Shown here: in pieces, positions 54,765-56,450 of the stretch | Layout of the letters: every line of letters begins with the position of its first letter | How positions within the stretch are numbered: position 1 is the stretch's first letter | Sequence record: CP054387.1 | Origin: Escherichia phage CMS-2020a | Direction: 5' to 3' (one strand) | Length of the DNA stretch: 64,000 nucleotides | Program-made: the position numbers and the translations under genes | The notes under the pieces: generated by a model | Seen by the model: the letters and a program-made list of their open reading frames with translations, nothing else | Databases searched by the model: none | Told to the model about the DNA's origin: nothing

Positions 54765-56450
54765 TCATTTAACGCGTTTGAAAACGTATACGCTGACTGT
54801 GATCCCTGTGTCTTCAAACTCGTTGGTAAACGACTTCCCTCTGGCATAAACGTAATTATCCATCGTCATCCAGTCCAGTATTGGCGCAGTGCCCGGCAAT
54901 ACTGCTACAAGACGCCCGCCGACTTTCAGATGCCCCAGCGCAGCCAGCGTGTGCTCTCTATGACGACCAAGCGAGTACGGCGGGTTCATAACGATTTTGT
55001 CGAACTGATAACCTGCGTTGTCCTCAGACCACTTTATGAAGTCGCAGCAAATCGTGTTCGTATACCCTTTTCCACGCAGGATATCAGCGAAGAGAGGTGC
55101 GATTTCTATGCAGGTAACATCTTCCAGATCGGCGTTAATATAGGCCAGAAGATCCCCACGTCCGGCTTGAGGCTCCAACAGCTTCTCACCAGGCTTCAAT
55201 TCAGTGGCTCTGGCAACGTACTCAGCAATCAAGCGTGGGGTAGGGTAGAACTGGTGTGATTTTGTATCCGGTATTAAACCGGTAGCCACAATCGTATTTA
55301 GCGTATGGCCGATCTCATACGGGAACTGCCAGTGCTTTTTCTCCTGCACGCCGCCAATGAAGCTCAGTGTGCGCTCAAGCTCTTCCACCTGCGACTTCTG
55401 GAGAGCTGAATCAGAGAAGTACCATACGCCTTTGTCTTTGCTCAATCGCCCGTCACGAAGCGCAGTGCGAACCGGCACGGAGATCGTCTTCTGGATTAAC
55501 CCGAACTGCTTTGGTGCCCGTGTTTTTGGCGCAGTTCGGCATGGCGCGGGGATTGCAGCAGGCATACTGTAAGCCAGCACCTCATTCAACTTCCAGGCCA
55601 CGTCAGGATGTATTTCAAAGTGAACGTTGCCGTTCTTGAACATCTTCACGCGCATCAGATTTCCATCGACGTTCATCCAGTCACCGGTCTGGCAGTCGTT
55701 TGCCCGATACGCAGCTGATAGCACCTCAGCAGTGCGGTTGATGGTAATAAATTCTTTGTGCGCGAAGAAATGAAGCAAGACACGCAGATCGTCGATGTAG
55801 TCCTCTTTGCGATAGTTCACGCTAACGCTGTCACGCCAGAAATCAGAAATGCAGTCAGCGATTATCAGACGCTCGCTGAAACCGTTTGTCTTATTTGTCT
55901 TGTGCGCAGGACTCAGCGCCTTAAACAAGCCATACACGCGCTCAGAGAGATATTTGTGCCTGTCATTCAGCAAATTAAGCATCGTTGGTATGACCGTTTC
56001 TGCTTTGAACTCCGGTACACCAACGAACTCTTTAACCTTCATCTGATAGCCGGTTCTGTCAGTTTTGATGACTTCCTGCTTGCCCTCGATAAATAGCTCA
56101 CGCCACTCGTCGCGACGGGAAGCTGGCATGATCAGCAGAACGTTAGTCATATCCGTAACCTTCCTCCAGTACTCGGCCCAAATATTCTGTTTCACCCATT
56201 CCAGATCGACGTTATCCAGCCAGACTCGATTCAAACGTGAGCGATCTTCATCTGGTCGGTGGTTTAGTCGAAGCAGGCGATTAATCATGTTGTGGCGTTC
56301 ATCGCCATAAACGAAGTCGTGTACCTGATACATGAAGGAGATCTCTTTCTCGCACTCGGCCACAATTTCGTGGATGACGTTCATTTCCTGTCGATAGTCG
56401 ATAGCAGTGTTTGAGCTGGCATCGCCCATGATGGAAAGGGCTGTATTCAT
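54765..56450 (-). CDS. DNA N6-adenine/N4-cytosine-type methyltransferase with large N-terminal domain of unknown function
   Basis: 561 aa; C-terminal ~130 aa carries SAM-binding-like LEPQAGRGDLL then KIVMNPPYS (NPPY motif IV); no adjacent restriction enzyme. Confidence 0.65.
   Translation of the reverse strand: MNTALSIMGDASSNTAIDYRQEMNVIHEIVAECEKEISFMYQVHDFVYGDERHNMINRLLRLNHRPDEDRSRLNRVWLDNVDLEWVKQNIWAEYWRKVTDMTNVLLIMPASRRDEWRELFIEGKQEVIKTDRTGYQMKVKEFVGVPEFKAETVIPTMLNLLNDRHKYLSERVYGLFKALSPAHKTNKTNGFSERLIIADCISDFWRDSVSVNYRKEDYIDDLRVLLHFFAHKEFITINRTAEVLSAAYRANDCQTGDWMNVDGNLMRVKMFKNGNVHFEIHPDVAWKLNEVLAYSMPAAIPAPCRTAPKTRAPKQFGLIQKTISVPVRTALRDGRLSKDKGVWYFSDSALQKSQVEELERTLSFIGGVQEKKHWQFPYEIGHTLNTIVATGLIPDTKSHQFYPTPRLIAEYVARATELKPGEKLLEPQAGRGDLLAYINADLEDVTCIEIAPLFADILRGKGYTNTICCDFIKWSEDNAGYQFDKIVMNPPYSLGRHREHTLAALGHLKVGGRLVAVLPGTAPILDWMTMDNYVYARGKSFTNEFEDTGITVSVYVFKRVK

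What the first reader, a model, noticed from the sequence alone, without database searches (positions are those of the whole stretch)
54765..56450. Orphan methyltransferase with a ~430-aa N-terminal domain of unknown function, plus a second Dam-type methyltransferase at 61328..61921
Seen in sequence: the 561-aa protein has SAM-binding-like and NPPY motifs only in its last ~130 aa. The Dam-type enzyme has DVDVACNKDN and FLNPPYS. Neither has an adjacent restriction enzyme. Established knowledge: phage orphan methyltransferases protect against host restriction. Inference: the large N-terminal domain could be a target-recognition domain or a fused second activity.
Basis: partly seen in the sequence, partly recalled or inferred. 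Interest (0 to 1): 0.4.

Follow-up and report, generated by a model that had tools for sequence, protein, structure and literature searches.

The report
Orphan methyltransferase fused to DUF4942 module
A phage-plasmid of E. coli/Shigella carries two stand-alone DNA adenine methyltransferase genes, one an ordinary phage Dam-type enzyme and the other a compact methyltransferase unit fused to a widespread, conserved protein module (DUF4942) whose function nobody has tested.

Summary
The window is an SSU5-like phage-plasmid.

**Dam-type ORF (61328..61921):** it scores above the curated cut-offs of the phage Dam family (PF05869, TIGR01712).

**561-aa protein (54765..56450):** this is the RefSeq protein WP_014962270.1, annotated as a DUF4942 domain-containing protein. 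It has four segments:
- 1–87: variable helices.
- 88–306: DUF4942 module.
- 307–395: variable alpha/beta segment.
- 396–561: gamma-type N6-adenine methyltransferase unit with no recognition domain of its own.

**What the evidence shows:**
- The fused layout is widespread in prophages and phages (365 representatives at E<=1e-30).
- No restriction or defence partner is detectable, and the neighbouring genes are not conserved.
- DUF4942 does not behave like a classical recognition domain. It is as conserved as the catalytic core.
- DUF4942 also exists as intact stand-alone ~250-aa proteins.
- The methyltransferase unit on its own recurs inside giant, polyvalent-type phage proteins of 2,700–3,400 aa.

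**Most likely function:** an orphan DNA adenine methyltransferase that serves restriction evasion.

**Not known:** its recognition sequence and what DUF4942 does. Strong avoidance of 6-bp palindromes in the window argues against blanket, non-specific methylation.

This is an uncharacterised variant of a known kind and is moderately interesting.

The parts
54765..56450 (-). Whole CDS, 561 aa. The identical protein is RefSeq WP_014962270.1, annotated 'DUF4942 domain-containing protein'. Its homolog in phage SSU5 is SSU5_095, annotated 'putative DNA modification methylase'.
   Evidence: full-length match to PHROG 6263
56190..56450 (-). Residues 1-87: poorly conserved N-terminal tail and long helices.
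   Evidence: AF2 model helices 20-48 and 52-62; mean top-residue frequency 0.21-0.29 across 148 representatives
55533..56189 (-). Residues 88-306: the conserved DUF4942 module. The Pfam match covers residues 140-295 (55566..56033). Family-wide invariant residues are W95, L179, S180, H183, T185, N186, H277 and N289.
   Evidence: stand-alone homologs
56016..56084 (-). Residues 123-145: a beta-hairpin insertion inside the DUF4942 module that is specific to the SSU5-like clade.
   Evidence: 74% gaps in the family alignment, median length 3 residues elsewhere; strands 124-130 and 136-142 in the model
55266..55532 (-). Residues 307-395: a variable basic linker plus a small alpha/beta segment in front of the methyltransferase. 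It is the best remaining candidate for a specificity or DNA-contact element.
54768..55265 (-). Residues 396-561: a compact gamma-type N6-adenine methyltransferase unit. Motif X is at 55236..55253, motif I at 55149..55178, and NPPY at 54975..54986. There is no C-terminal recognition domain.
61328..61921 (-). Phage Dam-type N6-adenine methyltransferase, 197 aa. DVDVACNKDN is at 61778..61807 and FLNPPYS at 61682..61702.
   Evidence: PF05869 at 130.8 bits (cut-off 28.1) and TIGR01712 at 113.6 bits (cut-off 97.05); PHROG 111; 85% identical homolog in SSU5, where the corresponding gene is SSU5_088

Best explanation
The 561-aa protein is a fusion of two separable modules. The C-terminal 165 residues are a self-contained gamma-type (EcoKI/TaqI-like) SAM-dependent N6-adenine methyltransferase unit that has no recognition domain of its own. 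The same portable unit is found inside giant polyvalent-type phage proteins. The N-terminal 306 residues correspond to a complete DUF4942 protein, a conserved module that also exists on its own in phages and genomic islands. A variable segment of about 90 residues joins the two. I infer that the protein methylates adenines in the phage-plasmid's DNA, and incidentally in host DNA, while the element replicates. DNA that later enters a new host would then be pre-protected against some restriction systems. I further infer that DUF4942, possibly together with the variable segment, brings the catalytic unit to its substrate or adds a second early-infection or counter-defence function, rather than acting as a classical sequence-reading domain. 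The 197-aa protein is an ordinary phage Dam-family orphan methyltransferase with the same general role. What is shown: the gene structure, the domain boundaries, the catalytic motifs, the lack of a partner gene, the autonomy and conservation of DUF4942, and the distribution of the family. What is inferred: DNA as the substrate, the anti-restriction role, and the role of DUF4942.

For: The fused layout is conserved. There are 365 representatives at E<=1e-30, and 144 of the 149 newly returned top hits are 486-604 aa. In all 40 ORFs that carry both modules, DUF4942 comes before the methyltransferase.

The contexts are phage early, replication or nin-like regions: YdaT, DnaT/DnaC-like, RecT/YqaJ and integrase; Ant and NinG; a second DNA methyltransferase, an exonuclease and an integrase. 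In this window the gene sits among RNase HI, Dam and 3'-5' exonuclease genes, and the annotated identical plasmid continues into DHFR and ThyA genes just beyond the window.

No nuclease or defence partner is present, and the neighbours are not conserved.

DUF4942 is autonomous. Forty-eight clusters, 47 of them 243-289 aa (one 199 aa), carry only PF13708. The phage PS_L5 protein matches the full Pfam model at E 2e-46 and has no methyltransferase next to it. The DUF4942 core is as conserved as the methyltransferase core (top-residue frequency 0.55 against 0.57).

The methyltransferase unit alone aligns from residue 399 to 559 with giant phage proteins at pairwise E 4e-23 and 2e-19.
Confidence: 0.55

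Rival explanations
1. The N-terminal region, DUF4942 included, is simply the target-recognition and DNA-clamping domain of a conventional sequence-specific methyltransferase. It sits at the N-terminus instead of the usual C-terminal position of gamma-class enzymes.
For: The catalytic unit ends about 70 residues after NPPY and has no C-terminal recognition domain, so DNA recognition must come from somewhere else. The two modules always occur in the same order in the fused family.
Against: Recognition domains normally vary with specificity, but DUF4942 is as conserved as the catalytic core, with 19% of its columns at least 90% conserved. DUF4942 exists as intact stand-alone proteins with no adjacent methyltransferase. 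It has no fold or sequence similarity to any solved recognition domain.
Confidence: 0.2
2. The enzyme methylates RNA (m6A in rRNA or tRNA) or a protein (HemK-like glutamine methylation), and DUF4942 binds that substrate.
Confidence: 0.08
3. DUF4942 is a nuclease, and the protein is a single-chain restriction-modification enzyme or a host-DNA-degrading enzyme that protects its own DNA by methylation.
For: Some phage records label homologs 'RE endonuclease'. The fused family has a conserved D221, D262 and H277-x-E279-x-H281 pattern on a beta-hairpin followed by a helix.
Confidence: 0.05
4. One or both enzymes act mainly as epigenetic regulators of the element's own replication, packaging or lysis-lysogeny decision, rather than as anti-restriction devices.
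For: Annotated Dam sites regulate the cre and kilA promoters in the phage-plasmid P1. Both genes lie in the replication and nucleotide-metabolism region. The host already has Dam, so a GATC-type phage Dam adds little protection in E. coli (inference).
Against: No methylation-sensitive regulatory sites were identified here. The methyltransferase unit is related to modules in injected polyvalent proteins, which points to a role in conflict with host defences.
Confidence: 0.15

Closest known systems
Gamma-class (EcoKI HsdM / M.TaqI-like) N6-adenine DNA methyltransferases
   Different: There is no C-terminal recognition domain and no HsdS partner. A 395-residue N-terminal extension containing DUF4942 is present instead. 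Pfam N6_Mtase scores below its cut-off (13.8 against 20.4 bits).
Adenine methyltransferase module of polyvalent phage and plasmid proteins (archetype P1 DarB; Iyer et al. 2017, PMC5512222)
   Same: The 165-residue unit is 32-36% identical over its whole length to modules inside phage proteins of about 2,700-3,400 aa. PHROG hits go to families with profiles of 772-3,925 positions, six of them over 1,200. It shows the same TP...NPP(Y/F) features described for that clade.
   Different: The protein is only 561 aa and has no SF2 helicase. Similarity to P1 DarB itself is not significant in BLASTP. The gene lies in an early or replication region, not among virion genes. It is fused to DUF4942, which that paper does not mention.
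Stand-alone DUF4942 proteins (PF13708; PHROG 38825), for example Pseudoalteromonas phage PS_L5 WMM36541, SRL island orf56/L0010, and the Salmonella SPI-3 remnant
   Same: They are homologous to residues 88-306 and share W95, P146, F148, T156, F176, L179, the K-T-N motif (184-186), D221, L222, G274, H277 and N289.
   Different: They are about 250-290 aa and have no methyltransferase. D262, E279 and H281 are not conserved. One group lies between the portal and MuF genes. Others lie in islands beside KlcA, RadC and YeeU/YeeV genes (PMC6980539).
Phage Dam family (PF05869 / TIGR01712), which includes the phage T1, HP1 and VT-2 Dam enzymes (membership of those enzymes recalled from memory, not checked here)
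   Same: The 197-aa protein scores well above both curated cut-offs and has the NPPY motif.
   Different: Nothing notable. Its specificity (GATC in the characterised members, from memory) was not tested here. No solved structure is detectable by sequence.
M.EcoGII, the non-specific prophage adenine methyltransferase (PMC5778455)
   Same: It is a prophage-borne orphan adenine methyltransferase without an obvious recognition domain, so it is a functional analogy.
   Different: M.EcoGII is a beta-class enzyme (PMC7544214). The strong palindrome avoidance in this window argues against blanket non-specific methylation here.

Membership tests
Pfam DUF4942 (PF13708) | Score above the curated gathering threshold | tested here: met
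   71.3 bits against a cut-off of 25, E 1.1e-19, residues 140-295. Four divergent full-length homologs also score 70-96 bits.
Gamma-class N6-adenine DNA methyltransferase (EcoKI/TaqI-like) | Motif order X, I, II, III, IV, with NPP(Y/F) and a TP-capped preceding helix | tested here: met
   QFYPTP at 400-405, LEPQAGRGDL at 425-434, TCIEI at 446-450, CCDF at 468-471, NPPY at 489-492. These positions are conserved family-wide.
Gamma-class N6-adenine DNA methyltransferase (EcoKI/TaqI-like) | Class I Rossmann methyltransferase fold similar to solved members | tested here: met
Gamma-class N6-adenine DNA methyltransferase (EcoKI/TaqI-like) | Pfam N6_Mtase (PF02384) above threshold | tested here: not met
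   13.8 bits against a cut-off of 20.4.
Gamma-class N6-adenine DNA methyltransferase (EcoKI/TaqI-like) | Recognition domain C-terminal to the catalytic core, or a separate S subunit | tested here: not met
   The protein ends 69 residues after NPPY, and those residues form the last strands of the core. No S-subunit-like neighbour is present.
Gamma-class N6-adenine DNA methyltransferase (EcoKI/TaqI-like) | Transfers methyl to N6 of adenine in DNA | not testable with these tools
   This needs a methylome or an in vitro assay.
DarB-like methylase-helicase dyad of polyvalent proteins | Methyltransferase fused to a C-terminal SF2 (SWI2/SNF2) helicase and an N-terminal LPD36 domain, inside a multi-domain giant protein | tested here: not met
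   The protein is 561 aa and ends with the methyltransferase, with no helicase. BLASTP against P1 DarB is not significant. LPD36 itself could not be tested because no model was available.
DarB-like methylase-helicase dyad of polyvalent proteins | Catalytic module homologous to those in giant phage proteins | tested here: met
   Pairwise E 4e-23 and 2e-19 over residues 399-559. PHROG families with profiles of 772-3,925 positions match at E 1e-8 to 1e-50.
Phage Dam family (PF05869 / TIGR01712), ORF 61328..61921 | Scores above both curated cut-offs, and NPPY present | tested here: met
   130.8 bits against 28.1 and 113.6 bits against 97.05. FLNPPYS at residues 74-80.
Phage Dam family (PF05869 / TIGR01712), ORF 61328..61921 | GATC specificity | not testable with these tools
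   GATC occurs 252 times in the window, with O/E 0.80. This says nothing decisive.
Restriction-modification system (type II or IIG) | A cognate endonuclease gene or domain | tested here: not met
   The flanking ORFs have no Pfam or PADLOC nuclease or defence hit. No nuclease domain is found in the protein or its homologs. The neighbours are not conserved.
MADS defence system (mad2) | Co-occurrence with the other mad genes, and a full-length match to mad2 | tested here: not met
   Only residues 394-523 match mad2 positions 265-401 of 492 (E 1e-15). The neighbours have no PADLOC hits.

The most novel reading that the evidence does not exclude
DUF4942 is an autonomous, so far unrecognised early-infection or counter-defence module. 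Its stand-alone form is encoded between the portal and MuF genes in one phage group, which suggests it is packaged in the virion and delivered with the DNA. Other stand-alone copies lie in genomic islands beside anti-restriction genes. The SSU5-type protein would then be a minimal two-module 'polyvalent' anti-restriction protein that joins DUF4942 to the portable, recognition-domain-less adenine methyltransferase unit otherwise found in giant injected proteins.
Probability: 0.25. Interest if true: 0.6.

Novelty: new variant of a known kind. Interest (0 to 1): 0.36.

Why it matters
SSU5-like phage-plasmids are common in Escherichia, Shigella, Salmonella and Klebsiella (563 plasmid records matched this locus), and some carry resistance genes (PMC9600943). 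Knowing what their methyltransferases modify would help explain which hosts they can enter.

More broadly, the DUF4942-methyltransferase fusion is a large family (at least 365 representatives after clustering at 50% identity) with no member tested. Databases annotate it inconsistently: 'DUF4942', 'methylase', 'RE endonuclease' and 'Lar family' all appear.

Showing what DUF4942 does would assign a function to a widespread domain of phages and genomic islands. It would also explain how a methyltransferase core without a recognition domain finds its substrate.

Tried and rejected

2. Close kinship with P1 DarB. BLASTP gave only motif-level, non-significant matches.

3. Reverse domain order. PHROG 32703 matches the methyltransferase at its N-terminal end and a stand-alone DUF4942 at its C-terminal end, which suggested methyltransferase-then-DUF4942 fusions. 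A local HMM scan of all ORFs in 100 fetched loci found 40 DUF4942-then-methyltransferase ORFs and none in the reverse order. The hint is unconfirmed.

4. A profile search with the DUF4942 region in the word-indexed protein database returned only fragments of the same gene.

5. A profile search of the DUF4942 region against PDB sequences gave nothing below E 0.7.

The BFVD search gave no hit at E<=0.001.

7. The promoter-like site count equals chance (17 found against 16.5 expected), so it gives no operon information.

8. Literature searches for DUF4942, PF13708, SSU5 or pHCM2 methylases, strain 2009EL-2050, and phage-plasmid methylomes found no functional study.

9. My ungapped comparison of the window with NC_018651.1 beyond the tested 3.3 kb gave many mismatches, probably an indel or register shift. 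I therefore verified the features transferred from that annotation that I report with coordinates of their own (metG, apbC) by translation, rather than assuming identity.

Full report
**What is there.**
The window carries the two ORFs exactly as described: 54765..56450 (-) encodes 561 aa and 61328..61921 (-) encodes 197 aa. The 3.3 kb around the first gene is 100% identical to plasmids of about 107-110 kb from E. coli O104:H4 2009EL-2050 and Shigella sonnei. It is 99.5% identical to Escherichia phage PhiR41_1 and 89% identical to Salmonella phage SSU5. The window is therefore an SSU5-like phage-plasmid. RefSeq annotates the first protein as 'DUF4942 domain-containing protein' (WP_014962270.1) and the second as 'phage N-6-adenine-methyltransferase'. 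SSU5 calls them 'putative DNA modification methylase' and 'putative N-6-adenine-methyltransferase'.

**The Dam-type gene is ordinary.**
The 197-aa protein scores 130.8 bits on Pfam Dam (PF05869, cut-off 28.1) and 113.6 bits on TIGR01712 (cut-off 97.05). No solved structure is detectable by sequence. It is a standard phage orphan Dam-family enzyme. Its specificity was not tested here.

**Anatomy of the 561-aa protein.**
- The methyltransferase motifs lie only in the C-terminal part: QFYPTP at 400-405, LEPQAGRGDL at 425-434, TCIEI at 446-450, CCDF at 468-471 and NPPY at 489-492.
The catalytic domain begins near residue 396 and is about 165 aa, and the rest is about 395 aa.
- The rest is not one domain of unknown type. 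Residues 140-295 match Pfam DUF4942.
- AlphaFold models were made for the full protein (pLDDT 80) and for residues 1-395 (pLDDT 81, pTM 0.72). Combined with family conservation, they give four segments: variable helices (1-87), a conserved DUF4942 module (88-306) with a clade-specific beta-hairpin insertion at 123-145, a variable alpha/beta segment (307-395), and the methyltransferase core (396-561).

**The catalytic unit.**
- A family profile finds M.TaqI as the best solved relative by sequence, at E 0.0015.
- The motif order, the NPPY motif and the TP-capped helix are the features Iyer et al. describe for the EcoKI/TaqI-like adenine methylases of mobile elements (PMC5512222).
- The protein ends 69 residues after NPPY, so the C-terminal recognition domain typical of gamma-class enzymes is absent.
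- The same unit, with the same boundaries (residues 399-559, 32-36% identity), sits inside giant phage proteins. Examples are the 3,421-aa protein of phage vB_Pun_Y3 and the 3,190-aa 'virion structural' protein of phiARM81mr, with further examples of about 2,700-2,800 aa.
- PHROG families with profiles of 772-3,925 positions also match this unit.
- P1 DarB, the archetype of that group, is not significantly similar in a pairwise comparison. I therefore do not file the protein as DarB-like.

**The N-terminal part.**
- BFVD gives no hit at E<=0.001. A DUF4942 profile finds nothing in PDB sequences. I found no paper that studies DUF4942.
  - First, across 148 representatives that share about 30% identity, the DUF4942 core is as conserved as the catalytic core. 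The mean top-residue frequency is 0.55 against 0.57, and 19% against 17% of columns are at least 90% conserved. Residues 1-87 and 307-395 are the variable parts. That is not how recognition domains usually behave.
  - Second, DUF4942 is an autonomous protein elsewhere. There are 48 clusters, 47 of them 243-289 aa (one 199 aa), that carry only PF13708.
- Examples of the stand-alone form:
  - Phage PS_L5 has a 251-aa protein that matches the full Pfam model at E 2e-46, with no methyltransferase next to it.
  - Vibrio phage BT-1011 has a 254-aa protein that matches my DUF4942 profile and no methyltransferase profile, yet is labelled 'methylase'.
  - A decayed copy lies in Salmonella SPI-3 beside rhuM.
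  - The SRL island has an ORF beside KlcA, RadC and YeeU/YeeV genes (PMC6980539).
- The stand-alone forms keep W95, P146, F148, T156, F176, L179, K-T-N (184-186), D221, L222, G274, H277 and N289, but not D262, E279 or H281. This removes most of the support for a nuclease-like site that I had considered.

**Distribution and context.**
- The fused layout is widespread. An exhaustive search gave 7,461 hits at E<=1e-3 and 365 at E<=1e-30. Of the 149 newly returned top hits, 144 are 486-604 aa, and most align in a single stretch from about residue 90 to about 557.
- Full-length relatives occur on phage-plasmid-sized contigs of many Enterobacterales, in the genomes of Serratia, Pseudomonas, Methyloversatilis, Hydrogenophaga, Shewanella and others, and in about 30 phage records.
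- Where I looked, the context is a phage early region: YdaT, DnaT/DnaC-like, RecT/YqaJ and integrase, with a C5 methylase next door in Serratia. In Aeromonas phage 2_D05 it lies between Ant and NinG. In phiPSA1 it lies beside a second DNA methyltransferase, an exonuclease and an integrase. In phage Dolphis it lies beside a large ADP-ribosyltransferase and phosphatases.
- In this window the flanking ORFs have no restriction or defence hits in Pfam or PADLOC. Their homologs are found only in the closest SSU5-like loci. 'Orphan' is therefore justified.
- One group of stand-alone DUF4942 genes lies directly between the portal and MuF genes. MuF is one of the hub domains of the injected polyvalent proteins in Iyer et al.. 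That genes beside portal and MuF often encode virion-packaged proteins is my own recollection, not something checked here.

**How it most likely works.**
I conclude that the protein is an orphan SAM-dependent N6-adenine DNA methyltransferase built from a portable catalytic unit and an autonomous DUF4942 module. It is made during replication of the element and marks its DNA against some restriction systems of future hosts. The catalytic competence is well supported by invariant motifs. DNA as the substrate is likely but not shown. The anti-restriction role and any targeting role of DUF4942 or of residues 307-395 are inferences.

One observation limits the possibilities. The window avoids 6-bp palindromes very strongly. 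Of 58 palindromic hexamers with at least 5 expected sites, 8 are absent and 15 have O/E below 0.3. Among 1,932 non-palindromic controls, none is absent and only one has O/E below 0.3. Examples are GAATTC (0 observed against 9.5 expected), GAGCTC (0 against 12.7), CTGCAG (1 against 17.7) and AAGCTT (2 against 19.1). An element that methylated every adenine would have little reason to purge A-containing sites, so a blanket non-specific activity like that of M.EcoGII is unlikely. The enzymes more plausibly protect a limited set of motifs.

**Rivals.**
I considered four rival readings and rank all of them lower, for the reasons given in the rival section: a classical recognition domain, an RNA or protein substrate, a fused nuclease, and a mainly regulatory role.

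**Novelty and verdict.**
The gene and the family are already in databases, and the kind (phage orphan adenine methyltransferase) is well known. What is not described, as far as I could find, is this layout and the nature of DUF4942. I rate it a new variant of a known kind, of moderate interest. The most novel reading that the evidence does not exclude is that DUF4942 is itself an early-infection or counter-defence module and that this protein is a minimal polyvalent anti-restriction protein.

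Noticed in passing
whole window, 1-64000: Very strong avoidance of 6-bp palindromes. Ten of the 64 palindromic hexamers are absent, including GAATTC, GAGCTC, CCATGG, GCATGC, GCCGGC, CTCGAG, GGATCC and AGGCCT. CTGCAG occurs once against 17.7 expected, and AAGCTT twice against 19.1. Only 1 of 2,016 non-palindromic controls is absent. This is the classic signature of selection by type II restriction systems.
   Followed up: partly
window 44594-46627 (-) and 46785-47885 (+): The phage-plasmid carries intact copies of metG (methionine-tRNA ligase, 677 aa) and apbC/mrp (366 aa) as a divergent pair. 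Their GC content is about 52%, against 45% for the window. This looks like a captured chromosomal housekeeping pair (annotation; ORFs verified).
   Followed up: partly
window 50665, 51327 and 52170 (gene junctions, - strand): Three junctions between small early genes share a motif of about 30 nt, GC(A/T)GGCATTCGCATCAAAGGAGAGTGA(T/G)ATG. It contains the stop codon of one gene, a ribosome-binding site and the next start codon. As a result, the proteins end in ...AAGIRIKGE and the next ones begin M(A/T)T... This looks like a recombination boundary for shuffling gene cassettes.
   Followed up: partly
window 56554-57455 (-): Two ORFs (204 and 93 aa) lie immediately upstream of the methyltransferase gene. 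They have 36.7% GC against 50% for the methyltransferase gene. They are absent from SSU5 and from the other loci I fetched. The phage Cyrano record, which is 94% identical over 54000..57300, has a 'putative outer membrane protein' among its features in that stretch. They are probably a recently acquired moron.
   Followed up: partly
L092 3341-6674; L093 3556-5844: In one group of metagenomic phage contigs, the stand-alone DUF4942 gene (253 aa) sits directly between the portal gene and a MuF-like gene. From my recollection, this position is typical of virion-packaged proteins.
   Followed up: partly
phage records MT711888.1 (Dolphis gp121), OR261032.1, MT104473.1 and NC_070774.1 (BT-1011 gp32): Annotations of family members are inconsistent or unsupported. 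Full-length DUF4942-methyltransferase fusions are labelled 'RE endonuclease' and 'restriction alleviation protein, Lar family'. A 254-aa stand-alone DUF4942 protein without a methyltransferase domain is labelled 'putative methylase'.
   Followed up: yes
PHROG 32703 (profile coordinates only): This 480-position phage family matches the methyltransferase unit at positions 7-123 and a stand-alone DUF4942 at positions 269-468. That hints at a fusion in the reverse order. No real example was found in the 100 fetched loci.
   Followed up: partly
L096 (Pseudomonas phage Dolphis, record positions 84125-93492): The Dolphis homolog lies in a cluster annotated as ADP-ribosyltransferase (1,222 aa), nucleotide phosphatase, metallophosphoesterase and 'CRISPR repeat binding protein'. 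This may be a host-takeover or anti-defence island. The evidence is at annotation level only.
   Followed up: no
window 59618-59639: A strong bidirectional terminator-like hairpin (9 bp stem, 8 GC pairs) lies in the gap next to the RNase HI gene (59734..60411). It is the only strong terminator-like site between the two methyltransferase genes.
   Followed up: no
L008 (Erwinia sp. OLFS4 contig), 6001-7470 and 10516-10929: A distant DUF4942-methyltransferase homolog (34% identity) and a Dam-family homolog (38% identity) lie about 3 kb apart. The pairing of the two methyltransferase types therefore recurs outside SSU5-like elements.
   Followed up: no
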